From: Stegostoma tigrinum
Lineage: Eukaryota
Direction of reading: 5' to 3'
Length of the DNA: 64,000 nucleotides
NCBI RefSeq assembly: GCF_030684315.1
Contig: NC_081372.1
Span: 21,419,869 to 21,483,868 of the forward strand
The position numbers were made by a program, and so were the translations under genes. The notes under the pieces are model-generated. The model worked only from the letters and a program-made list of their open reading frames with translations, did not search any database and was not told the DNA's origin. This document shows, one piece after another, positions 12,353 to 64,000 of this stretch. How positions within the stretch are numbered: the stretch's first letter is position 1; each line of letters opens with the position of its first letter.

Positions 12353-13022
12353 TTTGCAGAGCACCTACGCTCGGTTCGCAATAAACAACTGCACCTCCCA
12401 GTCATGAACCATTTCTATTGCCCCTCCCATTCCTCAGAAGACATGTCCATCCTGGGCCTCCTGCAGTGCCACAATGATGCTATCTGAAGGTTACAGGAAC
12501 AGCAACTCATATTCAGCTTGGGAACCCTGCAGCCCAATAGTATCAATGTGGATTTCACAAGCTTCAAAATCTCCCCTCCCCCAACCGCATCCCAAAACCA
12601 GCACAGTTCGTCCTCGCCTCCCTAACCTGTTCCTCCTCTCAGCTATCCCCTCCTCCCACCTCAAGCCCTAACCCCATCTCCTACCTACTAACCTCATCCC
12701 ACTCCCTTGACCTATCCATCCTCCCTGGACTGACCTATCTCCTCCCTACCTCCCCACCTACACTCACCTTTACTGGCTCTACCCCCGCCTCTTTGACCTG
12801 TCTCTCTCCTCTCAACCTATCTTCTCCTCTATCCATCTTTTATCCGCCTCCCCCTCTCCCCCTATTTATTTCAGAATCCCCTTCCCTCCCCCATTTCTGA
12901 TGAAGGATCTAGGTCTGAAACATCAGCTTTCCTTCTCCTAAGATGCTGCTTGGCCTGCTGTGTTCATCCAGCTCTACACATTGTTATCTAAGATTCTCCA
13001 GCATCTGCTGTTCCTATTACCT
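12353..13022 (+). mobile_element. 5'-truncated Penelope-like retroelement: GIY-YIG endonuclease C-terminus, C/T-rich 3' UTR and terminal repeat with hammerhead motif
   Basis: Frame from 12353 reads FAEHLRSVRNKQLHLPVMNHF...MSILGLLQCHNDAI*RLQEQQLIFSLGTLQPNSINVDF, typical of the PLE endonuclease end. CTGATGA at 12897-12903 and GAAAC at 12917-21. Confidence 0.85.
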
Positions 13023-14063: not shown

Positions 14064-14990
14064 ATGACTGTCAAGCTGATTCAGTGTACTGCGTGCATGA
14101 TGTGGGAGGTCAGGGACACTGATGATGCTTCTGGCTCCTATAGCTGTGGTAAGTGTGTACACATTTAGCTTCTGAAGGAGGTTGTTGCAGCACGGAAGAA
14201 AGAACTAGAAGACCTCAGGCTCATCGGAGAGAATGAGAATTTTCTGGACAGGACCTTCAGCAAGGTCACTACACCGAGGATACCAGAAGAGAGAAGGGGG
14301 ATGTCGATGACAAAGGAAGACATGAATGAAGTACAAGAGACCCCAGGGGAAGCACCTATTGTAAACAGGCTGACTGTCTTGGAAACTGCCGAGACAGATG
14401 ACACTGCCAGTCCGAGATGTGGACAGGTCTGCGAGTCAAAAATTGCTGTAGAGGCAGAGCCGAGAAGTCAGACATCACGGAGAGCTGTGGTAATAGGGGA
14501 CTCCATTGTGAGAGGGACTGACAGGGGTTTCTGCGGCAACAGGCAAGATTTGAGGATGGTGTGTTGCCTTCCTGGTGCCAGGATCCAGGACGTCACTGAT
14601 AGAGTGCAGAGAATCCTTGAGGGCGAAGGTGAATAGCCAGAGGTGGTGGTGCATGTTGGCACTAATGACATCGGGAAGAAAAGGAGGAGCATTCTACAGC
14701 AGGACTTCAGAGAACTCGGAAGAAGGCTGCAAAGCAGGACTTCCAGGGTGGTTATCTCTGTTTTGCTTCCAGTTCCTCGGGCTGGAGAGGGCAGGAACAG
14801 AGAGATAATGGACCTGAATGTGTGGCTGAGGGACTGGTGTCGGAAGCGAGGATTTAAATTCTTGGATTACTGGGGTATGTTTTGGGGTAAGAATAAATTG
14901 TACAGGAGGGACGGTTTGCATCTTAATAATCGGGGGACCAGCTTTCTGGCAGGCAGGTTTGCCACTGCCACACAGGTGTGTTTAAACTAA
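14064..14990 (+). pseudogene. CR1 ORF1 (Cys zinc-finger/leucine zipper + SGNH esterase) with two in-frame stops
   Basis: ATG at 14064, MTVKLIQCTACMMWE...CGKC; motifs VVIGDSIVRG, VHVGTND, DGLHL. TAG at 14166-68 and 14634-36; otherwise one frame to TAA 14990. Confidence 0.88.
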
Positions 14991-15042
14991 GTAATGGGGG
15001 GAGGGGCCAAACTGGAAATTTAAGAATGAAGTTAAAGGGAAA

Positions 15043-17969
15043 GTGAGAATAAGAGACGTTAAGAAGGACAACAGAATCAACAGAGCAGAAAACTCAAGAA
15101 GGGATCATACAGTATGGCCAAGTGAAATAGGGATTGATAGGAAGGGTGAGGGGAGAAACAAATTAAAAATATATATGAATGCACGAAGCATAAGAAATAA
15201 GGTGGATGAGCTCGAGGCTCAGATGGAAATTGGCAAGTATGATGTTGTGGGGATAACTGAGGCATGGCTTAAAGTGGACAGGGCCTGGGAAATGAATATT
15301 CAAGGCTATACATGCTATCGAAAGGACAGATTGGTGGGCAGACGGGGTGGGGTAGCCCTGTTGGTGAGGAATGATATTCGGTCCCTTGCAAGGGGGAACG
15401 TAGAGTCAGGAGATGTAGAGTCAGTATGGATAGAGCTGAGAAATTCTAAGGGTAGAAAGACCCTAATGGGATTAATCTACAGGCCCCAAACAGTAGTCAG
15501 GAGGTAGGGTGCAGGTTGAATCAAGAGTTGAAATTGGCCTGTCACAAAGGTATCACTACAGTTGTTATGGGAGATTTCAACATGCGGGTAGACTGGGAGA
15601 ATCAGAATGGTACTGGACCCCAAGAAAGGGAGTTTGTAGAGTGCCTCCGAGATGGATTCTTAGAACAGCTGGTACTGGACCCTACCAGGGAGGAGGCAAT
15701 TCTGGATCTGGTGTTGTGCAATGAACCAGATTTGATCAGGGACCTCAAAGTAAAGGAGCCATTAAGAGGTAGTGACCATAATATGATAAGTTTTAATCCG
15801 CAGTTTGAGAGGGAGAAGGGACAATCGGAAGTGTCAGTATTGCAGTTGAATAAAGGGAACTATGGAGCTATGAGGGAGGAGCTGGCCAAAGTTCAGTGGT
15901 ACAATGCCCTAGCAGGGATGGCAGTGGAACAACAATGGTAGGTATTTCTGGATATAATGCAGAAGGTGCAGGATCAGTTCATTCCAAAGAGGAAGAAAGA
16001 TCCTAAGGGGAGGCGGGGGCAGCCGTGGCTGACAAGGGAAGTTAAGGACTGTATAAAAATAAAAGAGACGAAGTATAACATTGCAAAATTGAGTGGGAAG
16101 CTGGAGAACTGGGAAGCTTTTAAAGAGCAACAGCGGATAACTAAAAAAGGCAATACACAGAGAAAAAATGAGCTACGAAGGGAAACTGGGCAAAAATATA
16201 AAGGAGGATAGTAAAAGCTTTTTTAGATATGTGAAAAGAAAAAAATGGTTACGACTAAAATTGGGCCCTTGAAATCAGAAACGGGTGAATTTATTATGGG
16301 GAACAAGGAAATGACAGATGAGTTGAATGGGTACTTTGGATCTGTCTTCACTAGGGAAGACACAAGCAATCTCCCAGATGCAGTAGTGGCTGAAGGACCG
16401 AGGGTAATGGATGAACTGAAGGGTATTTATATTAGGCAGGAAATGGTGTTGGATAGACTGTTAGGTCTGAAGGCTGATAAGTCCCTGGGACCTGATGGTC
16501 TGCATCCCAGGGTACTTAAGGGGGTGGCTATAGAAATTGTGGACGCGCTGGTAATTATTTTCCAAGGTTCTATAGATTCAGGATCAGTTCCTGTAGATTG
16601 GAGGGTGGCAAATGTTGTCCCACTTTTCAAGAAAGGATGGAGAGAGAAAACAGGAAATTACAGACCGGTTAGCCTGACGTCAGTGGTGGGAAAGATGATG
16701 GAGTCAATTATAAAAGATGAAATTACGACTCATTTGGATAGCAGTAACAAAATAGGTCAGAGTCAGCATGGATTTACGAAGGGAAAATCGTGCTTGACTA
16801 ATCTTCTGGAATTTTTTGAGGATGTATCTATGAAGGTGGATAAGGGAGAGCCAGTGGATGTAGTGTACCTGGACTTTCAGAAAGCCTTTGATAAAGTCCC
16901 GCATAGGAGATTGGTGAACAAAATTAGGGCACATGGTATTGGGGACAAAATACTGAGTTGGATTGAAAATTGGCTGGCTAACAGGAAGCAAAGAGTAGTG
17001 ATAAACGGGTCCCTTTCGGAATGGCAGGCAGTGACCAGTGGGGTACCACAAGGTTCAGTGCTGGGACCGCAGCTGTTTACGATATATATTAATGATATAG
17101 ACGAAGGCTTTAGAAGTAATATTAGCAAATTTGCTGATGACACCAAGTTGGGTGGCAGTGTGAAATGTGAGGAGGATGTTATTAGAATACAGGGTGACTT
17201 GGACAGGCTAGGCGAGTGGACGGATGCATGGCAGGTACAGTTTAATGTGGATAAATGTGTGGTTATACACTTTGGTGGCAAGAACAGGAAGGCAGATTAC
17301 TATCTCAATGGAGTCAAGTTAGGTAAAGGGGAAGCACAACGAGATCTAGGTGTTCTTGTACATCAGTCAATGAAAACAAGCATGCAGGTACAGCAGGTAG
17401 TGAAGAAAGCTAATAGCATGCTGGCCTTCATCACAAGAGGAATTGAGTATAGGAGCAAAGAGGCCCTTCTGCAGCTGTACAGGGCCCTGGTGAGACCGCA
17501 CCTAGAGTATTGTGTGCAGTTTTGGTCTCCCAATTTGAGGAAGGACATTCTTGCTATTGAGGGAGTGCAGCGTAGGTTCACAAGGTCAATTCCCGGAATG
17601 GCAGGACTATCATATGTTGAAAGATTGGAGCGACTGGGCTTGTATACACTTGAGTTTAGAAGGATGAGAGGGGATCTGATTGAGACGTATAAGTTTATTA
17701 AGGGATTGGACACTGTGGAGGCATGAAGCATGTTTCCGCTGATGGGTGAGTCCAGAACCAGAGGACACGGTTTAAAAATAAAGGGTAGGCCATTTAGAAC
17801 AGAGTTGAGGAAAAACTTCTTCACCCAGAGAGTGGTGGATACATGGAATGCTCTGCCCCAGAAGGCAAAAAAAGGCCAATCTCTGGATGCTTTCAAGAAA
17901 GAGATAGACAGAGCTCTTAAAGATAGTGGAATCAAGGGTTATGGGGATAAGGCAGGAACAGGATACTGA
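15043..17969 (+). pseudogene. CR1 ORF2 (APE endonuclease + reverse transcriptase), disrupted
   Basis: YMNARS, ITEAWL, MGDFN, GSDH (APE); [26 protein letters not shown] (RT). Stops at 15939-41 and 17724-26; frameshifts near 15485, 16145 and 16240. Confidence 0.92.
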
Positions 17970-18819
17970 TTGTGGATGATCAGCCATGATCATAATGAAT
18001 GGTGGTGCTGGCTCGAGGGGCCGTATGGCCTACTCCAGCACCTATTGTCTATTGTCTATTGTCTATTATTTCCTTTCCCATCTGCAGAAACATTACAAAC
18101 CAGCAGTAATTTTACTTTGGAATTAAAGAGTTCTGAAAGCTATGGTTTTCAGAAAGCTTTTTACAAGTACAAATGTTTATTGGCCTTGATATGCTGTCAA
18201 CTTGCAATGTCATAATTTATATCCAACCAACAACCACAAGAGACCCATTTATAAAGAGAAGACTCAACACAAATTGAATGGATCCAAATTCTAATCTCAT
18301 GTGCAAGAATCCATAGATAGATCCAAAGTGAAAATGTTTGCTCTGAGTTACATGTACGACATTAGTTTACCTTCTGTTGGAGAGTTTGCCCCAAAGCAAC
18401 AAATATTGGTTATTGGGCACATGCACTTTGCATGATTTTCTGACCATAGGTTTAAATTGTTTGGCTGTGAGATGCATAAAATTGGAGAGTTTCCCTATTG
18501 TGTAAAAAGAGCAATCGCTAGTCAGATTGCCGTAGTTACCAATGTTAAGAAAGTGAGATTATAATAAGTCTCAGATTCTCCAGCATCGGCAGTTCCCACT
18601 ATCTCTGAATCAGTCATGCACTTTACTCCCCTCCTTCGCCTCGGACACCTGCAGTTCACTGAGTCACATCCACCTTATTGCACTTGAATACATTAAAAAA
18701 AATGATGAAAATCATCAATATTAATGATGTATTTATCTGTTGATTCCTCCAATGTTGTGGATCCATTGTTGTTTATATCTAGGAATCCTTTTTAGCAATG
18801 TAATTCAGTTGCTTAGTTA

Positions 18820-18951
18820 AAACCAAAAGAACTGTGGATACTGTAAATCAGTAAGAAAACAGAAGTAGCTGGAAAAGCTCAGCAGGTCTGGCAGCATCTG
18901 AGAAGAAAAAATCAGAGTTAATGTTTTGGGTCCAATGACCCTTCCTCAGAA

Positions 18952-18952
<1 letters not shown>
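18820..18952 (-). repeat. Short Penelope-terminus-like repeat; hammerhead with GAAA mutated
   Basis: Minus strand reads CTGAGGA-agggtcattggaccc-AAAA-CATT-AACT, with CpG-type changes in the core. Confidence 0.75.

Positions 18953-18955
<3 letters not shown>

Positions 18956-19017
<62 letters not shown>
18956..19017. repeat. (GT)31 microsatellite
   Basis: Seen directly. Confidence 0.97.
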
Positions 19018-19021
<4 letters not shown>

Positions 19022-20129
19022 CATAGAATCCCTACAGTTTGGAACAAGTCCACACTGCCCTTCTGAAGAGCATCCCACTCTGGCTAAATCCCCTACCTCT
19101 CCATTTCCTCGTGCTGTTGAATGAGAGAAATGAGTGATTATGCACAAAGATTCAGAGAGGGTACATGGAGAATTCAGGGGTATTTCAGCACCAGAATGGG
19201 TTACAAATGCTTGGATGATGTGAAGTGAAGAATGGAAAATAATTTTAAAATATAATGTTATAATGATCAAGCCTTGAAGAGAGTTGAATGGTAGATGGAT
19301 TGAGGTATAAACAAAAGAATGCCATGTTACAGTGCTAGAAATAGCCTGTCCTTATTATAGGAAGAATTTGGAGTCAGAAGTTCAGGTTGAATTTAAGTCA
19401 GATTCCAAGGTTACAAGGAGCCTTGCTCTGCTTTAAAAAAATGACCAGGAGTGAGTAAGTGATATGGGAACAGTAATTAAGATGGGGTGAACTATTGCTT
19501 CTCAATACTTAGCTGATGGAAATAGCATTTCATTGGAGATTTGAGGCAGAATTTCTGTACCAGTGGGTTCCAGTGTGTGCAAAATGGTAAATTCAAAAAA
19601 GTGGCATCAGGAAAGGACCCCCTCATCATCCCCCCTTTTCCCCATAGCAGGGAAAAGTCCTGCCGGGAATACCCACTGATCTGGTGGGAAAGCAATTGAG
19701 GAGGTTGAAAAGGCAATTAAGACCTTTTGTAGTCATGATTTGTATCTTTCCCAATTGTGCACAACTTCTGCCATTCCAGAGTAACAGAGGAAAGGACAGG
19801 CTTCAATCAGTTATGCAAAATAACTGGAGCCTTGGCTATTGAGTGACTGCTGCTCAAAGCATCTTTCCTTTCCAAAAATGTAATTACTACATGGAAGACA
19901 TATCATCTGTCCAGCACTTCACTTACCTTCAGCTACATGCATGATGACAGCCCTCAGTATGACAACATAGCAGCTTCAGCAACTCTAATGTAAACATGTG
20001 CAGAGGGTCAACAGCAAAAGCCTTACCACAGCAACAGCAGCAGCCACATCCACAGTAATACTACTTGCCTTCTTCTCAATTGAATACTCCTCCACAGGGC
20101 ACAGGAAACAGAAAGCAAAACACAGTTTT

Positions 20130-23100
20130 ATTTTTATTCACTCATGGGATGTGGGTGTCTCTAGCTGAGCCTGTCCCTAGTTGCTCTTGAGAAGATGGCT
20201 GTCAGCCAATTTCTGTTGGTAGATCCACAATTCCGCTCAGGAGGGAATTCCAGGATTTTGACGCACCTACACTGAAGAAACAGTGATATATTTCCAAGTC
20301 AGGGTGATGAATGGCTTGGAAAGGAGCTTGCAGTTGGTGGGGTTCCCATTTAACTGCTGTCTTTGCCCTTCTAGGTGGAAGTGATCATGGGTTTGGAAGG
20401 TGCTGACTAAGTATGGACCTTGGTGAATTTCTGGAATGCATCTTGTAGACATTAGACATTGTTTCTACTGAATGTCAGTGGTGGAGAGGGTGGATGCTTG
20501 TGGATGGGGTGCTAGTGAAGTGGAGTGCTTTGTCCTGGATAGTGTCAAGCTTCTTGAGTGTTGTTAGAACTGTACCATTCCAGGCAAATGGAGATTATTG
20601 CATCATTCTCCTGATTTATGCTTTGCAGATGGTGGACAGGCTTTGGGGAGTTAGGATATGAGTTACTCAATATAGTTTTGCTAGCCTATGTCCTGCTTTT
20701 GTAGCCACTGTGTTTATGTGGTGAGTACAGTTGAGGTTCTGGTAAATGGTAACCCCCAAGATGTTGAAAGTGAGAGATTCAGTAATGGTAACACTGTCGA
20801 ATGGCAAGGAGTGGTGGTTAGGTTGTGTTTTACAGGAGATGCTCATTGCTTGGCATTTGTGTGACACATATGTTACTTGCCATTTGTTAGCCTAAGCTGG
20901 TATATTGTCCAGGTTTTGATGCATTTGAAAATGGATTCTTTCATTATTTGCAGAGTCTCAAATGATGCTAAATATTTTGCAATTGTCTGCAAACATCCCA
21001 CACCAAACCTAATGATGGAGAGGTCACTGATGAAGCACTTGAAAATGTTTTGACCTAGGACATTACCCTGAGAGATGTCCCACAACTGAGATGACTGACC
21101 TCCAACAATCACAACCATCTTCCTCTGTGCCAGGTATGACTCCAACCTGATTCCAGTTTTACTAAGGTTCCTTGATGTCGTATTCAGTTGAATTAATCCT
21201 TGATGTCAAAGGTTGTCAGTCTCTCCTCACATCTGGAATCCTGCTCTTTTGCAATCAGATACAAAATTGGCTTGACAGTAGGATACAGTGGGTGGTGGTA
21301 GAGGGTTGTTGTTCATCTGCAGGCTTGTGGCCAGCTGTGTGCCACAGGGATCAGTGCTGGGTCCACTCTTGTTGATCATTTATATGAGTGATTTGAATGA
21401 GAATATAGGAGGTATAGTTACTGGGTTTGCAGTTGATTCCAAAATTGGTGGTATAGTGGACAATAAAGAAGGTTACGTAAGAATACAATGGATTCTTGAT
21501 CAACTGACTCTGTGGTCTGAGGAATAGCAGGTAGAGTTTAATTTAGATAAGTGTGAGGTGTTGCACCGGTAAGAAAAGCCGAGGCAAGACTTACACTGTT
21601 AATGGTAGAGCCCTGGGGAGTGTAGTTGAACACTGAGATGTAGGGATGCAGATACACAGTTCCTTAAAAGTGGAATCACAGGTAGACAGGATAGTAAAGA
21701 AGGCATTTGGCATGCTTGCCTTCATCAGTCAGAGCATTGTTTACAGGAGTTGGAACACCATGTTATGTTGGTAACATTGGTGAGGACATTTCTGGAGTTC
21801 TGCGTACAATTCAAGCCACCCTGCTATAGGAAGAATGTTATTGAATTGGACAGGGTGCAAAAAAATACTTACAAGGATATTATCAAGACTGGAGGACTTG
21901 AGCTGTAAGGAGACGCTGGATAGACTGGGACATTTTGCCCTGAAGTACAGATGCTGAGGAGTGACCTTATGGAAGGTTATTAAATGACAAAGGGTATGGA
22001 TAAGGTCATTAGCCAAAGTATTTTCCCCAGGGTAGGGGAGACTAAAACAAGAGGGTATAGGTTTAGGATGAGATGGGAAAGATTTAAAAGGGACATGAGG
22101 GGCAACTGTCCACACAGAGAGTGATGCATATATGAAACGAGCTGCCACAGGTAGTGGTAGAATCAGGTACAATTACAATAATTAAAAGATATTTGGACAG
22201 GAACATGGAGAGGAAAGGTTTAGAGAGACATGGGCCAAATGCAGGTATATGGGATATAGTTTGGTTTTGGAAACGTGGTCAGCACAGTAGAGTTGGACTG
22301 AAGGACTCTTTCCATGCTGTATGGCTGTTCGACTCCACGACAGTCAGAGCTGAGTGGCCCTGACAAAACTCAAACTGGACATCACTGAGCAGGTTATTGC
22401 TGAGTAGGTGCTGTTTGTTAGCACTGTTGATGACACCTTCCATCACTTTACTGATGATCAAGAGTAGATCGATGGGGTGGTAATTAGTTGGGTTGGATTG
22501 GTCCTGTTTTTTATATACAGGACATGCATGGGCAATTTTCCACATTGTTGAGTAGATGCCAGTTTTGAAACTGTATTGGAAGAGCTTGGCTAGGGGAGCA
22601 GCAAGTTTTGGAGCATATGTCTTCAATACTATTGTTACACTATTGTCAGTGCCCATGGCCTTTGTAGTATCCAGCACCTCCAACCATTTGCTGATGTCAC
22701 ATGGAGTGAACAGAATTGGATTCTGCGCTGCTTAGACCACTGGACGAAGCCAAAATGGATCATGCATTTGGCATTTCTGGCTGAAGATCCATGTGAAAGC
22801 GCATCTTTTGTGCTGATGTGTTGAGCTTTTCATCTTTGAGGATGGAATTACTTGTGGTGGCTCCTGCTGCAGTGGATTGTTTGATCACGCACCACCTTTC
22901 ACGACTGGATGTGGCAGGACTGCAGAGCTTAGAACTGATTCGTTGGTGGTGGGTCGCTTTATCTCTGTTTATATTTGCTGCTTATACTGTTTGGCATACA
23001 AATAGTCCTGTTTGTTACTTAACTAGGTTGTCACCTCATTTTCAGATATGCCTGGTACTGCTCCTGGCCTCCACTCCTGCACTTTCCATCAAACCAGGGT

Positions 23101-24170
23101 TGATCCCTGGCTTGATGGTGATGGTTCAGTGCGGGATATGCCAGGCCATGATGTTGCAGCTTGTGCTGGAGTATAGTCTGCTGCTGTTGATGATCCACAG
23201 CGCCTCATGGATGCCCAGTCTTCAGTTGCCAGACCTGTTCAAATTCTGTCCCATTTAGCGCAGTGATATTGACACACAACACAATGGAGGGTATTCTCAA
23301 TGTGGAAGCAGAGCGTTGTCTTCATAAGGACTGTGTAGCAGTCATTCTTACACTTACTGTCATGGATAGACACATCTGTGGTTAGCAGATTAGTAGGGAT
23401 GAGGACAAGTATGTTTTTTCCTCTTGTTGGCTCCCTCATCACCTGCCGCAGACACAGTCAAGCAGCTATGTCCTTTAGGACACAACCAGCTCGATTAGTA
23501 GAACTGCTGCTGAGCCACTCTTGGTGGTCGACATTGTAATCCCCCACCCAGAATACATTTGCACTCACATCACCTTCAATGCATCCTCCAAGTGTGGTTG
23601 AACATGGAGGTATATTGATTCATCAGACAAGACAACAGCTGGTAATCAGCAGGAGATTTCCTCATCCAAGTTTAACCTGCAGCCATGAGAATTCCTGGAG
23701 TCAAAAGTCAATGTTGAGGATTTGCAGGGCAACTCTCTCCTGACTACATAACATGGTGCCATCACATCTGCTGAGTTTGTCCTGCTGGTGGGACAGGACA
23801 TATCCAAGAGTGTTGACGCTAGTGCCTTGGACATTGTCAGTCAGGTATGATTCTGTGAGTGTGGCTATGTCAGACTGTTGCTTGACTACTCTCTGACAAC
23901 TATCCCAATTTTGGCACTAGCTTCCAAATGTTAGTGAGGAGGACTTTGCAGTGTCAGTAGGGCTGTTTTTGCCATTGTCATTTCTGGTGTCTAGTTTGAT
24001 ATCATGTGGTTCATTCAGTTTCATTTTTTTGTTGAAGACTTCATAGCGATTGTCACAACTGAGTGGCTTGCCAGGCCATTTCAGAGGGCAGTTGAGAGTC
24101 AACCATATTGCTGTGGTCTGGAGTCACATGTAGGCCAGACCAGGTAAAGCTGGTAGATTTCCTTGAAGGA
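20130..24170 (-). mobile_element. Largely complete but degenerate family-B LINE (APE + RT, no visible ORF1), interrupted by a CR1
   Basis: Minus strand: KVLLTNIW..., LTESYL (APE start, about 23950-23850); REPTRGKNIL (23239-23442); RT N-terminus KAMGTD...WKIAH.CPVYKK...NYHPI.LL.IISKVME (22279-22683); tail tttttattcactcatgggatgtggg at about 20130. Confidence 0.85.
21251..22337 (+). mobile_element. 5'-truncated CR1 nested inside the family-B LINE
   Basis: VPQGSVLGP (21288-21527) through to the 3' tail tgggactgaaggactctttccatgctgtatggct; opposite orientation to the host. Confidence 0.87.
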
Positions 24171-44076: not shown

Positions 44077-44255
44077 ATGCTGGAAAACACGGCGGGCTCT
44101 GGCCCAGTCATCCTACCTTGTCTGCTGCTGACCACTATCCTCCTCGCTCTGATTGATGCCAAGGGCGGCTTCTACACCCCTTACCGATACAACCTTTTCA
44201 CCTCAGGGTCTAGCCCCAGCCTGAAAGGAGCGGGACGAGTCTCCGGCCGGCACAA
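44077..44255 (+). CDS. EMILIN3: EMILIN-3 exon 1 (signal peptide and N-terminus)
   Basis: Kozak-like CACC-ATG at 44077; hydrophobic leader LPCLLLTTILLALIDA then KGGFYTPYRYNLFTSG...GRHK; donor AA|gtgagt (phase 2). Confidence 0.9.
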
Positions 44256-44664: not shown

Positions 44665-44790
44665 GAACTATTGTGCTTATATTGTGAAGAAAAATGTCAC
44701 TTGCACAATGCAGGACGGGACAGATACCTATGTGAAAGCTGAGTACCGCCAGTGTGCTTGGGGCCAGCTGAAGTGTCCAGGAGTGGTCAT
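44665..44790 (+). CDS. EMILIN3: EMILIN-3 exon 2 (EMI domain, first half)
   Basis: Acceptor ttttttaactgcag; NYCAYIVKKNVTCTMQDGTDTYVKAEYRQCAWGQLKCPGVV; donor AT|gtaagt. YVKAEYRQC matches EMILIN3 as I recall it better than EMILIN1/2. Missing from the ORF track. Confidence 0.93.
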
Positions 44791-49672: not shown

Positions 49673-49836
49673 GTATCGAACATTTTACAAACCCAAATAC
49701 AAAATAGGATACAAGACTGTTACAGAATTAGAGTGGAGATGTTGTCCAGGATATTCTGGTGATAATTGCCGGGAAGGTGTGACAGGACTGCCTGAACTTG
49801 TGCCATCACACCCTGGACCCAGAAAAGGTTATTATG
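49673..49836 (+). CDS. EMILIN3: EMILIN-3 exon 3 (EMI domain, second half)
   Basis: Acceptor cctttccccatacag; YRTFYKPKYKIGYKTVTELEWRCCPGYSGDNC (EMI signature WRCCPG); donor G|gtaagt; phase 2 to 1. Confidence 0.94.
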
Positions 49837-52811: not shown

Positions 52812-54721
52812 GTCCCAAGGCTCCAGATGTCTACGGAGAACGAATCGATCATTTGGAAGATGAAATGCGACATTTTACACTATCGTTTGAGAGACTCCAA
52901 TCCATGGTGAGTGGAATCAGTGACAGTCTCAGACAATCCATTCAGAAAGACACCAATAAAATGATTGCTTCGTGGCTGAATAATCTAAAATGTCCTGATA
53001 AAGACTTTGCATGCATAACTGAAAGCCTGAAAAATCTGAGTAAAGGATACCCACCAGCGATGGGAGACTTGGAAGGCAAGATCCCAGAGGATAAGGATGT
53101 CTTGAAAACAAACAGTGACTTGCTGCATGACGTTTATGGGATGGTGATTCGTCATGATCGCCAAATCAGCCAACTTCTGGAGGCCAGTAGACCACCTACA
53201 CCTACGGCAACTGGGGATTTTCTCAACAGCTTTATAGATGACAGGCTCACCAAGTTCCGGGCTGACCTACTTGATGGATTTGAAAACAGATTCAATGTCT
53301 TGCAAACTGTCTGTGATTACAAAGTAAACTTAATCCAGCAACAGTGTGATGAACAGAAGAACATAAATCAACACCTTGAAGGAATGATTAATGGAAGAGA
53401 ATCTGACCTAAAAAAGGAGATTAATAACTTACAAACTCAGATTGGTGGATTGACTGTAACTGAAAACTGCTGTGACAAAGTCAAGTACTTGTCAGATAAG
53501 ATCAATGCCCTGGAACGGAATCTAAAAGAAATCTCAGACTATCAAAGATCATTAACAACACGGTTTGAGAGTGAGTTGCCACAATTCCCCAGTATTCATT
53601 TCGAAAATGAGTACAGTAGTAGGCTAGATGACATTGAAGCCAAAATCAATGTCACAGAGAGGAGACTGGAAGAAAATTGTCTGTTCATAGAAAACAACAT
53701 GAAGGGACATCTTGGAACTGAGCTGGATGGTATGAAGACATTCCTACATGATAAACTAAAGGACGTTGAAGGCCGAGTTACTGTTATTGTTGAGGAGTTG
53801 AGCAACATATCTATTCCTGCCAGCCTAGAAGGAGAAGTAATCCCAAGGCTAGAAACAGAGATTTCAACAATTAAGAAGAAAACTAATGATGGCCTGGTTG
53901 ATTTGGAAGGAAGACTAGAAGTTTTGGAGAATCTGTGTCCTGTTGGTTGTACCTCAATTATTAGTGACATTGAAATTCTAAGAACAGAAATTGATGATTG
54001 CCACAGAAACTGCCAAGATATTGTGACAAAACTAGATAAGAATTCTGGTCTACTTAACAAACTTAACTACTCCATGTTTGAAATAAACAGAAAAATTAAA
54101 GAGGAAGAAGAATCCAGTGCCGTGCAGGGAGAAATTACTTTACTAAAGATCAACATCAACTCCGTGAACAAGACCCTAAAAGGGATCAAAGACACTGTCA
54201 GCAAATATGCTGATGACTTTGCGTTTGCCAATTCAACGTGGGATGAACACGAGCGCAAAATGACAGATGAAGTCCATCTGATCCAACAGATAGTGAACAG
54301 CCAAGGTTCTCAGCTCCTTTTTAATGACAAGCGAGTCCATGAGCTCAAAGGTGATCTGGAACGAATTAACCATCGGATAATGTCAGATCTCCATAACTGC
54401 AAACACATCGCTCAAGATATCCAGAAGGAAGTGTCACAGGTTGACAGACGAGTGGCTCAGATGGAAAGTGTGTGCAGCAAACTAAGTGCAGTATTAAACA
54501 GTCTGGATTATATTAAGGATGGTTTGGATAATCATGCTGGAGATCTGTGGAATTACTTAGACCGCATGAATTTAACTCTCATGGTACACAATCAAGACAT
54601 CACTGCTCTGAGAGATTCAGTCAATGAGTGCCATACGAGAATAACGGGCATCGGAAATCAAGCATTAGATGGTAAGCAGCAACAACACTACTTTCACTAC
54701 AGTTTTACAAATCGGATGTAA
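52812..54721 (+). CDS. EMILIN3: EMILIN-3 exon 4 (long coiled coil); ends at stop 54719-21 or at splice donor after 54671
   Basis: Acceptor gcctcctag; GPKAPDVYGERIDHLEDEMR, then more than 600 open codons with heptad character, spaced Cys and GEITLLKININSVN. The track's TTG start is not real. Exons 1-4 give 792 aa with read-through. Confidence 0.93.
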
Positions 54722-54794
54722 AATAGCTAGGTCAAACTTACAGGATTTCTTCAAAATTCCTAATCATAACCCAATATTCATACTAATGTAATGA

Positions 54795-54800
54795 AATAAA
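54795..54800 (+). promoter_or_regulatory. Candidate proximal polyadenylation signal AATAAA
   Basis: About 74 nt after the read-through stop. The hexamer is common in AT-rich DNA, so it is weak alone. Confidence 0.35.
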
Positions 54801-55079
54801 TTTGCACAATAGTGAAAAAGCATAGAGACAATTTCCCATTATACACACCATTTATTCTATACATCTACTGTGGAGCAGTAATCCAAAGAAAAGGGTTTAG
54901 ACAGTTTCACAAACTGCAAAGATGAAATGCAATTTGTTTAATCATCTGCTGAATCCAGTAATTGGATGACTACCTTTACAGCAAGTTACAAAGATCTGGT
55001 TCTGAAACAAAATCATTACTTCCTTTAAACTTTGCTGAGGTTGGGACTTGAGGCGAGTGGAAGAGATTCAGTTTCTCTA

Positions 55080-55352
55080 TAAAAGTAAGATAAGTAATAG
55101 TTTCAGGAGAAAGGTCAGCCATTTAGGACTGAGTTGAGACATTTCTTTATTCAGATAATCCTGAACCTTCTGAATTTTATAGCCCAGAGGACCAGGGATG
55201 CTTTGTCTTTTGAGTATAACTTTAGGTTTTCAAAGAATATGGGAATAGAACCAAAAAGTGGAGTCGAAATAGGGGCTCAGCTATGATCTTTATTGGACAG
55301 CAAAGCAGACTTTCAGGCCATTGTACCTCCTTTATTCTTACTTATTTTCTTA
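55080..55352 (+). mobile_element. Degenerate CR1 3' relic
   Basis: aaaggtcagccatttaggactgagttgag...cagctatgatctttattgg...cctccttattcttac. Confidence 0.55.
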
Positions 55353-56846
55353 TGAATGCTCAAAGAGACAGACTGAAATTTTAATTTTAAAAGCAAAGCA
55401 ATACTTAGTAAATAAAAGAAAGGAAATGAATCCACTGTGTATCATCATATATGGTATTATGCAAGCAAACACGATGGTTGTGATGACTTTAGACTGCCAA
55501 ATTCACATACCTATATAATACAAAATGGAAAAGTGCAAGTTTACAGTTCAACTACCGCATATTCAGCCAATGTTGTCTGTGTCAACATTTTGCTAGATCA
55601 GTTCTGAACAAATTCTACAGCTCTGCTGTCTCCCTGTATCTTTTTCTGATTCAGTTATTAATGCACTTTCCTCTTAAAGGATACACATGGTCAACCACTT
55701 CCTGGGGTGCATCCTAAAAACTGTGTAAACAAATTCTTCCAACTTATCATTCCCTGTCAACATTGTAAATTAATTAGCTCAGATCATTAACTCACTAACC
55801 AAAGGAAATAGGCTTTCCTGTAATCTCACTCCCTCATCAAAACCTTTCATAATCTTTACCATCTCTTAATTTTTTTTAGGCTTTTCTCATGGAAATGGTC
55901 TTTGTAACTTGAGTTCAGTCAAACCATCAATATTCATGAAGGAAACAAACTTTTTCCAGTTATAAACACTTCAGTATCCAAGAACAGAAATCCAAATATT
56001 CTTCAGTTCATTTAAAACTGTTAAAATTACCCCCTGTGCAACACTAATTGCTTACCTAAAAGTATTGAAATTATCCAAATACTGTACAACTATCAACATC
56101 CCATTACTGAGTGCTAGACCATAATTAACAATTTCACATTGTACAGTTATCCTGGGTTACCGTAAAATGGTTACATCTCGTGCTCCAAACTGAGTTAAAA
56201 TTTAATTTTAATTATATGAACTATTTATGCACCACCAACAGGAGACCTCAATATCAACAATATTGGATTATCACTTACTTCACAGAAACAGGAACCTTTC
56301 TCATTTCTGTTATAGACATATTAATGCAACAGTAAAGGATCACGAACAAAGAAATGCTAACTCCACCTCACTTAATACTTATAAACACAAAATTAGAGCA
56401 ATTGCAATTATCATAAAATTCCAACAGTCAACTCACTAACACACACCAAGGAGAATTGAAACTTGCCAACAATACCTGTTTGTTGCCCACACATGGAGCA
56501 TTCTGTAGATTATTAATGATGCCTAGCAGCTCAGAGGCTGAGCTCATGTACACCACATCAGCTCAGTTCATGCTGTCTGAATGGTTTTTCATAGAAAATA
56601 ATACGTTGAAGGGCACAGGCACATAACTTTACAATGTGGTAAAAAGTTAAAACAAACAACGTATTCCTGTGTACTTTTATATAGCATGCAGGAAGAAAAT
56701 GGAAAAAAGAAAAGGATTATTGAAATCTGTTATGAATTGAACTGCAGAAGATATTATTGCTCCAACACTTCAAGCTATGTGATGATTTCAGACGTACAGT
56801 TAGGGGAGCAGAGATGTTTATCTTGACCATCTGCCACGACTTTCAG

Positions 56847-56918
56847 TGTTATACATTGCTTTGAACAGACCTCCAACTCGCCCCAACAAGTCAGTAGTGG
56901 TTTCAAGGATGCCATTAG
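56847..56918 (+). CDS. Candidate 72-bp linker exon of EMILIN3 (V/LYIALNRPPTRPNKSVVVSRMPL)
   Basis: actttcag| ... TTAG|gttagc; phase 1-1, stop-free, fits between exon 4 and the collagen exon. Splice signals are moderate. Confidence 0.3.
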
Positions 56919-58914
56919 GTTAGCACCAGCTGTTTCAAAAACTTAATATGTGTAAAAATTAATTGGATTTGTGTTTAAACTTCATGCATGATAACCTGAG
57001 GCTACATGGTGTGTACCAGTTTAACTTGAGGAAAGAAACTCTATACACTCCTCCAGCAGTGACCTCTCACGCTTCAAAGATTTTCCTTCAGGTTTAAATA
57101 AAAGAAACAAATGGGCAAGATAGTAATTAACGTCCACAAATACTAACCTTACTTAGACTTCAAAACATTTTTTTACATGCTTTCACACAGGCTGTAGTGA
57201 ATGTATGGATGACTTAAGACCTAACCTTGCTATTTAGAGATGTTTAGTATGACGTGCAACCAATAAATAACAAAAGATGTAAAAATTTTACAGTTATATC
57301 AAATGCAGATCTGTTCAAAATCTGACATTCAGGTTTTTTTTTGGTGAGCGCATGTTAATTCAGTTCACACAAAGTAAAAGGGCCTGTATTTTGAGGTTCC
57401 CCTGATGACTCCAAATATTAAGCAGTCCTTGCAACATGCTGCCCCCAACTGTCAACTGCCGGCGGAAAAATTGTTTCTCTCTAATATTCACTGTTCAAAG
57501 ACATTGTTTCAGGAATGTTTCATAACACCTCAGAGTCTGAGATGTTTCAACTTGCTTAATCAGATTCAAGTAGTAGTACTTTATGGAGAAGAAATATACA
57601 GTATGTCAGCATCACCTATTGATGAACGATCTGGAGCTTTCAATGTTAAATGTGTGTAAAGCTGCTGTTAATGGCACCTCCTGCTTCCCACATTCATCAA
57701 ACTACTTTCTACACAATTCCTTTTTTTAACACAATTGTACAAATTTCTAATAGCGTGGTTCAGTCTCCAACATCTTCACTAATTAACTATTTAGATATTG
57801 AAGAAACAATAGTGGAAGACAGTGCTTCCTGGAGCCTGAGATTTAGAAATTTCCTTTGTGGGCTTGATTACCAAACTAAAGATTCAGTCTTTCATTTTCA
57901 TTTAAAATAAATACTGGATCTTAGATCCCATCTAAATATGTGTCTACTTGCCCACTTTGGTTCTGCTTTCGATATACCTCTGCTCTTCTATCAGATGACA
58001 GCATACAAAATAAATAATTAATCTTTGTGCGAATTTTAAAACGCACCTTGTAGTAAAATGAAAACAGCGAGAAAATGGATTATTGAGTGAAAGGTAGCTC
58101 TTGATATGGAAAGTTGACTAGTCGATGATCAGGGAAGGGGAAAAGTGCAGAATTTTTTTTTCCCAGCTTTCTTCAATATCAATACACATGGCTCAAATTT
58201 TTCAAGGTATACCCAAGTGTGAACTGTATGGTTCAGGAAGCTGAAACTTTCCCAGGGTTTCAACAAAGGTGATCATAGTGGCCCAACAAATAGTATTTCT
58301 TGCTCTCGGAAATCCGGAAGAAAATCAGCCAATTTTGTGGCTGAGCAGACTTGACTTAATTGCTGTGTGTTTCTTATAAAAATTCTTGGTCTTCTACAAT
58401 AAATCTGATTATAACAAAGTATATTTATAAACTGAAAATAAATTATTACATGGGACACTAGTGTACTGAAACAAGCTGTTTACTGTTTTCTGGTACATAT
58501 ACTTTATTTTAAAATGTTGCAGTTAAGCTTGCCAAGCCAGCTGTTTGTCATTCATAGGTCCTTGTTGGAAGCAAATTGTTCTATAATTTCAGTATGTCTG
58601 CTATGTGACAATCTCACCAAATTCATATAATTTTAATGAGAAGATTGAGGTCCGTTACTTTAATTTTAAAAATTAGCTATTGACTGTACTAGCTGCGTCT
58701 CCCTTAAAAGCAGTGAATAATACCACTGTTTAGCCTATAAAGGTTAAAAAAATGTTTCATTATTTACAGGGTGTCCTACTATACTGATCAGTAGAAATAT
58801 ACGGCACAGTCTCTGGAACAGGTTCCAAAGTTTTTTTTCTGAACAGGGCTACTTTGTGTTTATTTGTTTTGAAATCAGCTCCATTTCAACCATATGTCAT
58901 GATCCGATTAAAAG

Positions 58915-59298
58915 AACTTGGATCATTATAGCACCTTCTCATGTCCTCAGGATGCCCAAATTGATTTACAGCCAGTTAATTACTTTTGAACTGTAGCCAC
59001 TGTTGCTTCGTGGTTAAACAATGCCATCAATTTCCACACAGTAAGGTACTCAAACTATAAGGTGAATAAACGATCAGAGGATGTTCAGTTTTTTTCATTT
59101 CCTTGGTTCAAGGAGGAGTTTCGGGCACTCCGTTTAGCAGTAATAGAGGATCATTAACATGAGAGTGGGCCTTGGTTTAAATCTTATCTAAAAGTTAGTG
59201 ACTGGAAAAATGCAATTACCTACTCAAAGCCATTCCTGTTTTCAGCCTACATTCTGTTCTGATTGTGCAGTAGTATTCGAATCCACAACTTCTGACTC
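58915..59298 (-). mobile_element. DeuSINE (SacSINE1-like) relic
   Basis: Minus strand has a tRNA-like head gagtcagaagttgtggattcgaat, a Deu-like segment ttttagataagatttaaaccaaggccc and an L2-type tail ttgggcatcctgagg...aaggtgctata. Confidence 0.55.
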
Positions 59299-60309
59299 CT
59301 ACAGATTCACGTTTTAGGTACAGAAACTGCAGCTCTCAAGTTTCATGACAAGGACAATGCAGTGATTTGAATTCAAAGGGGTGATTCATCACTCTGAAAA
59401 CAAATGTTAAGAATGTGGATTTAGATTCAGCCAACCGTGCTATGTACATGTGCTCAAATTTCTCTCCTTCCTAACAATAGAAGCTTTATTGCACTAATAT
59501 TGGAGCACTTGGGATATTTAACATCTTGTATATCACCTCAGAGCTTCTATTACAGTGAGCAGTCAATGCTGGTTCAAGTACTTACATTTCTGTTTCTGGA
59601 ACAAAAGCTATACTCTGATGTTGAGGACTAACTGAGGTCAGTGGGAATATTAAAGTGTAATTCTAATTATAGAAATAATGATAACCTAAAAACAACACAA
59701 CAGAATAAATTGCTGAAATATTTTTGATAAACAAAAGAACTTCAAATCAATTCAAGTGAGCAAAAGCCACATATTAGTATTCTATTAACTGCATCTGCTT
59801 ATAAAGTCTGCTGTCAGTCACATAAAGACAATCTACTAATTTAGGACCTTCGCAAAACCACTTTGATTTGATCTCTAAGAAACAATTACATTAAGTATGC
59901 TATTCAAAATTTATGAAACATCTCACTTTGAACAGTGGGCGAGGAGAGAGAAATGAATGAGTTACTCGGGGCTGAATTTTCATTTTCAACTCCATCCTGC
60001 CATTGGAAGGAAACTTGGGTGGGTTGGGATTCCACAAATGCCAGCACTTGGGACAGTGTTTGAGGAGGCATCCAATCAATTTTCCACCTCTGGGAGCTCT
60101 GTCCAATTAAATAAATCCAATAGAAGGCCCTCCACCAGCGAGGGATCAGAAGCCCACAATCAGAAAGGCCCTGCTTGCTTACACAGCAGTAACTGTCCAC
60201 AGTGGGTAATTTAGTGAGCTGGATCACCTACCACTGATGTGTGGGTATCCTTCAGCCAAATTATATATATAGTTGAGGTGTAGCAAAAGGCTAGAGAGGA
60301 GGAATTAGA

Positions 60310-61790
60310 AAGAAAATGGTTGAACTTTAAGGTGCTAAGTTAGCAGAACAGTCGAGAGGCATCTGAAGTTACTGAGGGAAGCAGGGGTAGAAACTGAGGT
60401 GACACTGGGCACAATCTGCTAATGCTCCCCTTACAGGGGTTGTGCCAGAGGACTGGAGCCTTGCACCTTTGTTCAAAAATAATGCAAGGCTAAACCTAGG
60501 AACATACCAATGGTTTAATCTCATTGGTAGGAAAGCTTTTAGAAGTAGGCATTTTGTCCCAGATTTACTGTCACCTGGAGAAATGTGGATTAATTAAGAA
60601 AATTCAGCACAGGGCAAATCATGTTTAACTAACTTGATTGAATTGTTTGATGAGTTATCAGAGGTTTGAAGTGGTAATGCTGTTCATGTAGTTTTCCGAA
60701 AGATATTGGATACAGTAGCATATAACAAACTGGTCAGCAAATTTTAAACCCATGGATAAAAAGTACAGTGCCAGCACAACACAGATACCCAGCCGGTTGA
60801 GTGTCAAATGACAGAGTCTAATGGCAAACGGTTGTTTTTCAGACTGGAAAAGTTTATACAGTTAGTTTCCCTCAGTACTGCTTTTCTCAATCTGTGTTAA
60901 TAACCTAATCTTGGGCATGGAGGATGCAAATTCAGAATTTGAAGATGAGAAACTTGGAAATGTTTTGAGAGATGGATATGGATTGACTTCAAGAAGACAT
61001 ACCTTGGCGGAGTGAGAAAGCATGTGACAGATGAAGGTCATGGCAAGAAATGTGAAGTCATGCACGTTGGCAGGAACAGTGAAGAAAAGGAATAGGAAAT
61101 TATTGATATGATTTTTGTGGGAGTGCAGGAGCAAAGTAATCTGGGGTGCACGTGCACAGATCATTGACAGTAGCAGGACAGATTGAGAAAGTAGTTAATA
61201 TGCCGAGGAGGTCCTGGGTTTTATAAGTGGAGACATGGAATACAAAAGCAAGGAAGTTATGTGAACTTTTATAAAATATTCCATCTGCCTCAGCTGGCAT
61301 ATTTTGCTAAGCTCTGAATACCACACTTCAGGAAGAATGTGACAGCATAATGGTGAGGACATAAGAAAAATTGCAGAACCTTTGCAGGCGTGAGGGAATT
61401 CTGTTTCGTTATTAGATTGACAATTTGGAACTCCCCAAAGAAGACTCAGAAGAGATTAGATAAGTGAGGAGTCTCCACAAAGTAAATGGGAAGAAACTAT
61501 TTCCGTCAACAGAAAGATTAAGAATCAGCGGACATCCAACTTGCAGGTAAAAAACCTGGGAAAAACATATTAACTTGTGAGTGGTTAGAATCTCAAATGC
61601 GTGGTTTGAGGGTATGGTGGAGGCAACTTAAAGCATTGTTTTCAAAAGGGCATTGTATCTCCATTTAAAGAGAAAAGATTTGCAAATGGGAAGGATTTGG
61701 AGAGGGATTACTGAGTTGCTGTCAAAGAGCTGGCAATGACATGAAGGGCTGAATAACATTTTCATGTTGTAACTGTTATATAATGTTATG
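60310..61790 (+). mobile_element. Old degenerate CR1 ORF2 fragment
   Basis: agggcaaatcatgtttaactaacttgattgaattgtttgatgag (GKSCLTNLIELFDE); tail gaagggctgaataacattttcatgttgtaac. Confidence 0.75.
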
Positions 61791-63874
61791 GATCCTTTCA
61801 TGATATGGTGCTTATTCCAAGATTGAAAAGATCCAAACCACAAGTTACATTAGAGGTCCTGTGTTACGGTGCTTTCATATGACAACAGCATATTTGTAAT
61901 ATGATGCCCTTTAAAAATGTCTGCCATGTTATATTGGACATGTTCACTTTGACGACTAGTTGTTCACAAATCATGAAGTTTTATAATTCAGCATTGGCAT
62001 TCTTTAATTGAATTATAGACTATAGGAATTCATTCTGTATCTTTATTTACACTTCGCAGTCCTCACGCAACTTCTATTAAAGATGACGTACACTATCATA
62101 ATGGCTTTATAAAAAAATTATGAAGATTAGATCTTGCCAATGTATTCAGTGTAGTTATTTAATTTTAGGGAATCTGCTTTAATTCACATAACAGATTAAA
62201 CCTATTTAGGATCACATCAGAAATACTGGATTTAATTTGTCTTGTAAATTTGCTGATAACTGTACATTATGCTTATTTTTACAGACCATTATTTAGACCA
62301 TCAAACACAGAGACAACAATAATCAGTAGAACATTTGTTCATCTGGATGATTTTGAGTGTTTAGTGGGGAATATGTAACACTAGAACTTACTTTAATATT
62401 TACTTTAAAGACCTAATTCGGCAGTAAATTGCAATTGGTTACTATGTAGATTTAAAGCAAGAAAGAGCTATTTCACATAGGTCAATGTGTTAAAACTGCT
62501 TTGTTTTCTATACAGGAGCTTGTAAAGTCAAATTTGAATAAAGTTGTGAAATTTCACAGAATAGTGGAGCAGAGAAGGAGACCTTTCTTCCCCTTGTCTA
62601 TGCTAGTTCTTTGAACTAATTATGGAATATTTTTGAAAGACTGACAAATTATTTAAAAAGCGGAAAGAATTAGAGAACTCATTTTTAGGTTTAAATTGTT
62701 CAAAATGGGTAACTAGGGAATCAGCTGGTGGTTTTCAGATCCTATTATATTCCACATTTGTTCAATTATATAATCCAATTCTGTACTTTGGCAGTGATTT
62801 TTAAAGGATTTCAGATAGGAAAAAATATCCAAACTATATGAATTCATCAGTAAATCCATGATCACAGTTTGTCTGATAGAGATTAATTAGATTCCAGAGA
62901 CTCCCACAGCATACACTGTGTCAAGCATATGAAGCAACACTGTGCGCCAACAAAGACAGAGCACTGGGGTAATAACAATACAGGCATTGTTGCAGAACAA
63001 ACACATTCTGCACACAAGTTCAGCGATAAAAACAAGTTTATGCATATTAGGTTAAAGGTCTGGTTTTATTTAAATCCCAGATAGTTAGCAAGGTTAATTC
63101 CTTGTTTTGAATTGTTGTATCAAGTTCATATTTTCTCTTACTAAAAAGTAAGAAAATTATCTCAATTCTAATTGTCATCTTCCCCGAGATTGTCTGGTGT
63201 TCCTGGATTAGAAAGGTCACTTAGTCTCCCGAAATCACCAAGTGACCCATTTTGCATTATCTGGTTCGTAATTCCACATTAACATGCTGATTAAGGTTCA
63301 CTTACATTCGCTGCAGCACTACTGCAGAGTGCACACACACATTGTAATTGAAGTTCCAGCGCACTGTGGCTTCACTGCCAGCAGCACCACAGGTAGTTGC
63401 CTGCAGCAGTGATCAACATTTAGGATGCCTACTGATTTTCACTCCACTCATAACCCCTCATGCTTCACTTGTCACCTCAATCACCTCCCACTCACTGCTC
63501 CTTTAGTCAACTGTCTCACTGCCCCACTCGCAACATTTGAGCCCTCGTCAGCAGGAAGAGAGTGGAAGCAGAACAGTAAAAGCTGCTGCAAATAGAGGCA
63601 GTAACCATGAGCGTCAATGGTGATGACAGCAGCATCCAATTCTTGTTTCAGTGCAGTGGAAGAGATCGTGTTAATGGTATAATGTTTTCATGTGGAATAA
63701 CAAACTAAAAGTGTTCTTGATACCTGTCTAATATATTTGTCAAAAAAAATTACTTCCATATTTAGACAAAGCTCCTTGTGAAATTGAAAGTGCCAATATA
63801 AAAACGGATGGAATCAAATAGTGCGCAAGAGCGGCAGATTTTCAAAACCCTAATAGTGTCATTTTGAATTGCAG

Positions 63875-63910
63875 GTCCACAAGGACCTGTTGGCCCTCCT
63901 GGATCATCAG
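63875..63910 (+). CDS. EMILIN3: Candidate EMILIN3 collagen (Gly-X-Y) micro-exon: GPQGPVGPPGSSG
   Basis: Acceptor attttgaattgcag; 36 nt (4 x 9) encoding uninterrupted Gly-X-Y; donor CAG|gtaaaa; phase 1-1, in frame with the exon 4 donor GATG|gtaagc. Confidence 0.72.
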
Positions 63911-64000
63911 GTAAAATTACAAAAAATACTTTTTAAACTACCAGCTACTACCAATATTTTCTTGTCAGTATTTTGATATTTAAACACAAATTCTGCAGAA

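What the first reader, a model, noticed from the sequence alone, without database searches (positions are those of the whole stretch)
54660..63910. EMILIN3 that appears to keep a collagen stalk, with a built-in short/long isoform switch
Seen: near the end of the coiled-coil exon is a consensus donor (GATG|gtaagc, after 54671). About 9.2 kb downstream is a clean 36-bp phase 1-1 exon encoding GPQ-GPV-GPP-GSS-G in the right frame. If the donor is ignored, the frame runs 16 more codons to TAA (54721), followed by AATAAA (54795). Established: EMILIN1 and EMILIN2 have coiled coil, collagen stalk and gC1q, while mammalian EMILIN3 is described as ending after the coiled coil. Inference: this species may retain the ancestral full architecture, with further collagen and gC1q exons beyond the window. 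The read-through form would show how the tail-less EMILIN3 could have arisen by loss of one splice donor.
Basis: partly seen in the sequence, partly recalled or inferred. Interest (0 to 1): 0.8.

Follow-up and report, generated by a model that had tools for sequence, protein, structure and literature searches.

The report
Shark EMILIN3 keeps its C1q tail
Sharks, rays and chimaeras encode the connective-tissue protein EMILIN3 with the globular C1q tail that reviews say it lacks; bony vertebrates likely lost the tail by ending the protein at an old splice site, and the proposed short/long switch in the shark found no support.

Summary
The sequence features are real, and the main guess is right. 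The gene has seven exons; two gC1q exons lie 4 and 7 kb past the window. My exon model equals RefSeq XP_048406556.2 (944 aa) exactly. Contigs of six runs from related species splice the donor onto the 36-nt exon. A tree without the tail groups the gene with bony-vertebrate EMILIN3 (100/100). All 22 cartilaginous-fish species seen have a gC1q-bearing record; 0 of 208 bony-vertebrate records do.

Two parts fall. The stalk is a 4-triplet vestige, skipped in annotated isoforms and missing from skate models. The read-through switch has no support: EMILIN1 and EMILIN2 of this genome show the same donor, early stop and poly(A) hexamer, and the tail peptide is not conserved.

Added here: bony-vertebrate EMILIN3 ends 2-4 residues after the shark donor position, often in G-K/E/D-x-x, which reads like a translated splice donor (their DNA was not seen). 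The integrin-binding glutamate is kept (23 of 23 records).

Already in automated annotation; not found in nine paper searches or in this scan's earlier notes.

The parts
44077..44255 (+). Exon 1, coding part: start codon, hydrophobic N-terminus (likely signal peptide), lead-in to EMI domain
   Evidence: model identical to XP_048406556.2; covered by spliced contigs in X7, X8, X13
44665..44790 (+). Exon 2: first half of the EMI domain
   Evidence: contigs of X7 and X13
49673..49836 (+). Exon 3: second half of the EMI domain with the WRCCPG motif
   Evidence: PF07546 hit, E 5e-9
52812..54671 (+). Exon 4: 1,860-nt coiled-coil exon ending in a phase-1 donor
   Evidence: 52% identity to coelacanth EMILIN-3 over 99% of the exon
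54672..54721 (+). Start of intron 4; in-frame read-through to TAA at 54719-54721 (16 codons with the split Gly). No evidence that it is used as coding sequence
   Evidence: controls
54795..54800 (+). AATAAA in intron 4, one of 12 in this intron; sequence 15-60 nt after it is only 31% T
63875..63910 (+). Exon 5: 36-nt phase 1-1 microexon, vestigial Gly-X-Y stalk, skipped in annotated isoform X2
   Evidence: Joint 54671 to 63875 in contigs of 4 of 4 runs; skipping it gives XP_048406557.2, 932 aa, exactly
63911..64000 (+). Start of intron 5. It leads to two exons outside the window: exon 6 (L011:4745-4876, first part of gC1q) and exon 7 (L011:8039-8376, rest of gC1q with Glu882 and the stop codon), 3.9 and 7.2 kb past the window end
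   Evidence: PF00386 positions 2-36 (E 7e-5) and 37-127 (E 2.8e-5); best PDB match EMILIN-1 gC1q 2ka3, E 4.6e-29

Best explanation
This is the shark EMILIN3 gene, spliced from the coiled-coil exon through a 36-nt microexon towards two gC1q exons, and it likely keeps the ancestral full EMILIN layout that bony vertebrates cut short at this same donor position. Shown: seven exons, 944 aa, EMI domain, coiled coil, 4-triplet stalk, gC1q; the joint from exon 4 to exon 5 is used in related species. Inferred: the protein is secreted and trimerises like EMILIN1; the gC1q head would bind alpha4/alpha9-beta1 integrins through Glu882, the equivalent of EMILIN1 E933; the microexon acts as an optional short linker, not a stable triple helix. 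Inferred history: one truncation in the bony-vertebrate stem, in which transcripts ended inside intron 4, so that the old donor and the first intron bases became the last 3-4 codons and the downstream exons decayed. The 16-codon read-through in the shark is most likely ordinary intron sequence, not a regulated isoform.
For: Model identical to XP_048406556.2 and, without exon 5, to XP_048406557.2. Joint 54671 to 63875 with GT..AG ends in 4 of 4 runs; the contig reaching the donor goes on into the stalk exon in 4 of 4 runs (two of them new). Tree on 731 columns without stalk and gC1q: 6 cartilaginous plus 8 bony EMILIN3 form one group, 100/100, apart from 7 EMILIN2. The genome has separate EMILIN1 (C11) and EMILIN2 (C5) genes with a donor at the end of the coiled-coil exon, a short exon before gC1q and gC1q split at the same residue. 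gC1q in 22 of 22 cartilaginous-fish species seen, in 0 of 208 bony records, and present in lamprey EMILIN records. gC1q is better conserved than the coiled coil (chimaera 75% against 64%). Glu at the E933 column in 23 of 23 records, gapless alignment to 2ka3. Bony ends at the donor column: coelacanth DGENH, turtles and many birds EGKQH, salamander DGKNR, ray-finned fishes GDH/GDQ, against shark read-through DGKQQ and chimaera DGKYH; 112 of 196 bony records end in G[KEDN] plus 0-2 residues, background 2.2% per position.
Against: The gC1q tree alone does not reject capture of the tail from an early cartilaginous-fish EMILIN2 (AU p 0.36) or grouping with bony EMILIN2 (p 0.15). No DNA of any bony-vertebrate EMILIN3 was seen (searches found none), so the fossil donor rests on amino acids; 84 of 196 records do not end in the motif (some are partial, others differ), the records are not independent, and the ray-finned alignment needs a gap of about 9 residues. 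Bony records are gene models: an unannotated long form in coelacanth or lungfish is not excluded, and no lungfish record was among those listed. The laid runs are contigs of related species with RNA only guessed. Trimer formation and integrin binding were not tested. The tree has a single, long-branched EMILIN1 as root.
Confidence: 0.82

Rival explanations
1. Regulated switch: the shark makes both the long form and a 792-aa tail-less form by ignoring the donor and polyadenylating near 54820; bony vertebrates fixed the short form.
For: Stop at 54721 and AATAAA 74 nt later exist; only 6.3% of random positions have AATAAA that close after the first stop. One chimaera gene model (P0017, 764 aa) ends by read-through at this donor. 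The bony-vertebrate ends match the position.
Against: EMILIN1 and EMILIN2 of the same genome also stop 2 and 4 codons after the matching donor, with ATTAAA about 19 and 140 nt into the intron. Tail peptides are unrelated: 16 codons here, 21 in skate, 4 in chimaera. The two skate records with a read-through tail include no upstream exon (one starts in intron-derived residues), so they are likely unspliced DNA or pre-mRNA. None of the NCBI-named cartilaginous-fish isoforms listed ends by read-through; the two short full-start ones use other last exons. In six runs the contig that reaches the donor is the spliced form.
Confidence: 0.1
2. Re-acquired tail: EMILIN3 lost gC1q before jawed vertebrates split, and cartilaginous fishes regained it by copying the 3' exons of EMILIN2.
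For: The EMILIN3 gC1q is closest to EMILIN2 (53% in this genome; 60% to coelacanth EMILIN2). AU test does not reject a group of shark EMILIN3 plus shark EMILIN2 gC1q (p 0.36).
Against: EMILIN2 is also the sister of EMILIN3 in the tail-free tree, so similarity is expected. EMILIN3 gC1q forms its own group (100/99) and is not nested in EMILIN2. It needs a loss plus a gain instead of one loss. The two genes lie on different contigs, and the bony ends look like a former donor.
Confidence: 0.05
3. Fourth paralog: the gene is an EMILIN3-like ohnolog kept only in cartilaginous fishes, not the ortholog of mammalian EMILIN3.
For: Downstream order (lipin, myosin light chain, TGIF-type homeobox) resembles the human EMILIN2 neighbourhood as I recall it, and the BRK-domain CHD gene of this contig is 19.6 Mb away.
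Against: The genome search shows three EMILIN-type gC1q loci only, and none of the other EMI loci that I read looks like EMILIN3 (L008 on C36 was not read). The tree follows species order inside one EMILIN3 group. The contig carries the single ZHX gene, while the tandem ZHX pair is on the EMILIN2 contig (PMC7144352 describes Zhx1/2 as linked and lists Emilin3 in its Zhx synteny figure).
Confidence: 0.03

Closest known systems
EMILIN3 (EMILIN-T, EMILIN-5) of bony vertebrates
   Same: Orthologous by tree; EMI domain and coiled coil, 52% identity to coelacanth over the coiled-coil exon; bony proteins end at the column of the shark donor.
   Different: Carries a stalk microexon and a two-exon gC1q; reviews describe EMILIN3 as lacking gC1q (PMC3342094, PMC13326518; passages read).
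EMILIN1 and EMILIN2
   Same: Same layout: EMI in exons 2-3, one exon of about 2 kb for the coiled coil, short stalk exon(s), gC1q in two exons (PMC3342094); same loop with the E933-type glutamate.
   Different: Seven exons, not eight; stalk of 4 encoded triplets against 17 in the human proteins; no proline-rich stretch like EMILIN2's.
RefSeq EMILIN-3 models of cartilaginous fishes (XP_048406556.2, XP_048406557.2 and relatives)
   Same: Identical proteins for the long and exon-skipped forms.
   Different: Automated models only; the read-through form is not among the listed members.

Membership tests
EMILIN/Multimerin family (EMI + coiled coil + gC1q) | N-terminal EMI domain with seven cysteines and the WRCCPG(Y/F)xGxxC motif | tested here: met
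   PF07546 hit; seven Cys counted in exons 2-3; definition from PMC3342094 section 6
EMILIN/Multimerin family (EMI + coiled coil + gC1q) | Long central coiled-coil region in one exon of about 2 kb | tested here: met
   1,860-nt exon; only weak, sub-threshold Pfam hits of coiled-coil type; no dedicated coiled-coil predictor was run
EMILIN/Multimerin family (EMI + coiled coil + gC1q) | C-terminal gC1q, split over two exons in EMILINs | tested here: met
   same split in EMILIN1 and EMILIN2 of this genome
EMILIN/Multimerin family (EMI + coiled coil + gC1q) | Secretion and homotrimer formation | not tested
   Hydrophobic N-terminus seen; the single-sequence fold was uninformative (pLDDT 39)
EMILIN3 orthology group | Groups with bony-vertebrate EMILIN3, apart from EMILIN1 and EMILIN2 | tested here: met
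   100/100 on 731 columns, 22 rows
EMILIN3 orthology group | Linkage with ZHX3, CHD6 and LPIN3 | tested here: inconclusive
   Single ZHX 7.6 Mb away, BRK-domain CHD 19.6 Mb away, convergent lipin 50 kb downstream; paralog identity of these genes not tested, and EMILIN2 also has a convergent lipin
'EMILIN-truncated' structural class (EMILIN-T) | No gC1q domain | tested here: not met
   gC1q present; so it is an EMILIN3 by descent but not a member of this structural class
EMILIN1-type collagen stalk | About 17 Gly-X-Y triplets forming a triple helix | tested here: not met
   4 triplets in the exon, 5 Gly-spaced with the next exon; 3-5 in 19 species, none in 3; skipped in annotated isoforms of 6 species
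alpha4/alpha9-beta1 integrin-binding gC1q (EMILIN1 type) | Insertion loop with the E933 glutamate | tested here: met
   Gapless alignment to 2ka3; Glu in 23 of 23 records; binding itself not tested
Intronic-polyadenylation isoform switch (IgM secreted/membrane type; recalled) | Transcripts that end in the intron, with a conserved poly(A) site and tail | tested here: inconclusive
   Tail not conserved; same pattern in paralogs; contigs cannot show rare forms or 3' ends

The most novel reading that the evidence does not exclude
Sharks make both a gC1q-bearing, integrin-binding EMILIN3 and a tail-less form polyadenylated in intron 4; bony vertebrates fixed the short form, and their last 3-4 residues are the old splice donor, still intact in the DNA. 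The shark gene would then be a living intermediate of a domain loss. The fossil-donor half alone I put at about 0.6.
Probability: 0.1. Interest if true: 0.65.

Novelty: new variant of a known kind. Interest (0 to 1): 0.42.

Why it matters
EMILIN3 is defined in reviews by the missing gC1q. Cartilaginous fishes indicate that the loss is secondary, place it on the bony-vertebrate stem, and point to the exon border where it happened. This gives a natural comparison: what a gC1q head with an integrin-binding loop did for EMILIN3 (a notochord and microfibril protein) and what changed when it went. It is a tidy case of domain loss at an exon border. It is modest news, since the long form already sits in automated annotation.

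Tried and rejected
Run search: no RNA holder listed on record; 13 holders are guessed RNA. Read-through cover: depth 0 at 54704-55006 and at 56825-56925 in 4 of 4 runs; contigs drop rare forms and three of the four runs are only 91-92% alike in the exon, so this is not evidence of absence. Two skate Logan records with a read-through tail (P0254, P0257) were rejected as evidence: neither includes an upstream exon, and one starts in intron-derived residues. Short RefSeq isoforms of two rays (P0013, P0242) use other last exons. Two metagenome scans for bird or teleost EMILIN3 DNA found nothing. A Pfam C1q scan of the genome missed this gene's split gC1q; it was found by reading downstream. Single-sequence AlphaFold model useless (mean pLDDT 39); no fold search or complex job was run. 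The gC1q tree held three wrongly cut cyclostome rows; it was rebuilt with two recut, one dropped and five other rows left out. One search used exon borders off by a few bases; corrected. The 2012 EMILIN-3 paper (PMC3322879) is not held. Earlier notes of this scan: nothing on EMILIN3.
Full report
Observation. The window lies at G000:C23:21419869-21483868.

Gene structure. Reading past the window gave two more exons, L011:4745-4876 and L011:8039-8376, which match Pfam C1q positions 2-36 and 37-127. All six introns have GT-AG ends, and the last four are phase 1. The seven exons give 944 aa, identical to RefSeq XP_048406556.2 (EMILIN-3 X1, Stegostoma tigrinum); without the 36-nt exon they give 932 aa, identical to XP_048406557.2. 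The best solved-structure match is EMILIN-1 gC1q (2ka3, E 4.6e-29). My scan found no other Gly-X-Y exon between the microexon and gC1q.

Splicing. One search listed 19 runs, none on record as RNA; I laid 6 of them, all contigs, from 3 organism labels and 4 studies. In one search, 4 of 4 runs have a contig joining 54670 to 63874 with 3 ambiguous letters, GT..AG at cut +1, which is 54671 to 63875; one X7 contig runs through exons 1-4 without introns. In one search, the contig that reaches the donor continues into the stalk exon in 4 of 4 runs. These are related species, not this one.

Orthology. The genome has separate EMILIN2 (C5) and EMILIN1 (C11) genes. A tree of 22 proteins on 731 columns, stalk and gC1q removed, puts 6 cartilaginous and 8 bony EMILIN3 together at 100/100 and 7 EMILIN2 at 99/98, rooted on one EMILIN1. 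A lipin gene lies convergent 50 kb downstream, but EMILIN2 has one too. The contig holds the single ZHX gene, while the tandem pair is on C5; PMC7144352 (passages read) describes Zhx1/2 as linked and lists Emilin3 in the figure on Zhx synteny.

Distribution. All 22 cartilaginous-fish species among the named records have a gC1q-bearing EMILIN3. None of 208 bony-vertebrate records (coelacanth, amphibians, reptiles, birds, marsupials, bichir, paddlefish, gar, bowfin, teleosts; some partial; no lungfish or placental mammal among the named ones) has a C1q hit at E 0.01. A search with the gC1q region listed 120 of 151 hits: 15 cartilaginous EMILIN3, then 105 named EMILIN-2 or unnamed. Lamprey records, one named EMILIN-3, end in gC1q; their orthology was not established. 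The gC1q tree gives shark EMILIN3 its own group (100/99) beside EMILIN2, but does not reject capture from shark EMILIN2 (AU p 0.36). One loss in the bony stem is the simplest reading.

The stalk. The exon encodes 4 triplets. Across 22 species the longest Gly-spaced run is 3-5 in 19 and absent in two skates and the chimaera model; in stingrays and mantas it is broken. Annotated isoforms of 6 species skip it. Human EMILIN1 has 17 triplets (PMC3342094 section 6, read in full). EMILIN1 and EMILIN2 of this genome have a 45-nt and a 36-nt exon in the same place. So the exon is likely ancestral and likely works as a linker. If there is a switch, it is this 12-residue one.

The proposed short form. 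Open read-through of 16 codons occurs at 40% of random positions, and AATAAA within 80 nt of the first stop at 6.3%. That is uncommon but there are six introns, and the paralogs show the same picture: EMILIN2 stops after 4 codons with ATTAAA about 140 nt in, EMILIN1 after 2 with ATTAAA about 19 nt in. The tails of shark, skate and chimaera are unrelated in length and sequence beyond the donor-encoded residues. One chimaera gene model ends this way (P0017); I cannot tell whether RNA backs it. A rare short form is not excluded by contigs.

How the tail was lost. Aligned ends show bony EMILIN3 stopping 2-4 residues after the shark donor glycine: coelacanth DGENH, turtle and alligator EGKQH, salamander DGKNR, bichir and bowfin GDH, many teleosts GDQ; the shark read-through begins DGKQQ. 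A phase-1 G|GTRAG donor read in frame gives Gly then Lys or Glu. 112 of 196 bony records end in G[KEDN] plus 0-2 residues against 2.2% per position in the background; 84 do not, and the records share ancestry. I infer that transcripts came to end in intron 4 with the donor left in place. No bony DNA was available to check it.

Function. The loop that binds alpha4beta1 in EMILIN1 (Y927-G945, E933; PMC3342094) aligns without gaps, and Glu882 is kept in 23 of 23 records. Integrin binding and trimer formation are predictions.

What is known. PMC3342094 (section 6 and passages) and PMC13326518 (passages) state that EMILIN3 (EMILIN-T in the former) lacks gC1q. PMC11621341 (passages) gives its notochord and microfibril roles. 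Nine full-text searches (listings only, apart from the papers named) showed no paper on a gC1q-bearing EMILIN3. The library lacks most subscription papers; Schiavinato 2012, Corallo 2013 and Milanetto 2008 were seen only as citations and may discuss fish orthologs. No supplements were read. The long form is in RefSeq and UniRef.

Verdict. Real, mostly as guessed, shared by all cartilaginous fishes sampled; vestigial stalk; no support for the short/long switch. New variant of a known kind, interest 0.42.

Noticed in passing
G000:C11:99108179-99108223 (in L074): EMILIN1 of this genome showed only one Gly-X-Y exon (45 nt, 5 triplets) in my scan, against 17 triplets over three exons in human; the long stalk may be a bony-vertebrate expansion or the scan missed an exon.
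   Followed up: no
G000:C1:9782319-9815588 (L005, L058): An EMI exon and a one-exon C1q 33 kb apart look like Multimerin-1 (name recalled), although PMC3342094 says MMRN1 starts with birds.
   Followed up: no
G000:C23:21509500-21680900 (L013-L030): Downstream order is lipin (-), myosin regulatory light chain (+), TGIF-type homeobox (+), mirroring the human EMILIN2 neighbourhood as recalled; possibly the ancestral block order.
   Followed up: partly
window 63911-63925: RefSeq isoforms of basking shark and catshark extend the microexon by five residues (GKITK), probably through a later donor; the same residues follow the exon here.
   Followed up: no
G000:C4:57651834-57889691 (L038, L040, L041, L043, L045, L047): Six tandem C1q genes with open frames of about 600-650 aa, probably a cluster of short-chain collagens (not read).
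   Followed up: no
window 6016-23258: The first 44 kb hold reverse-transcriptase and endonuclease fragments of LINE type (CR1-like, name recalled), the longest 499 aa at 16227-17726.
   Followed up: no
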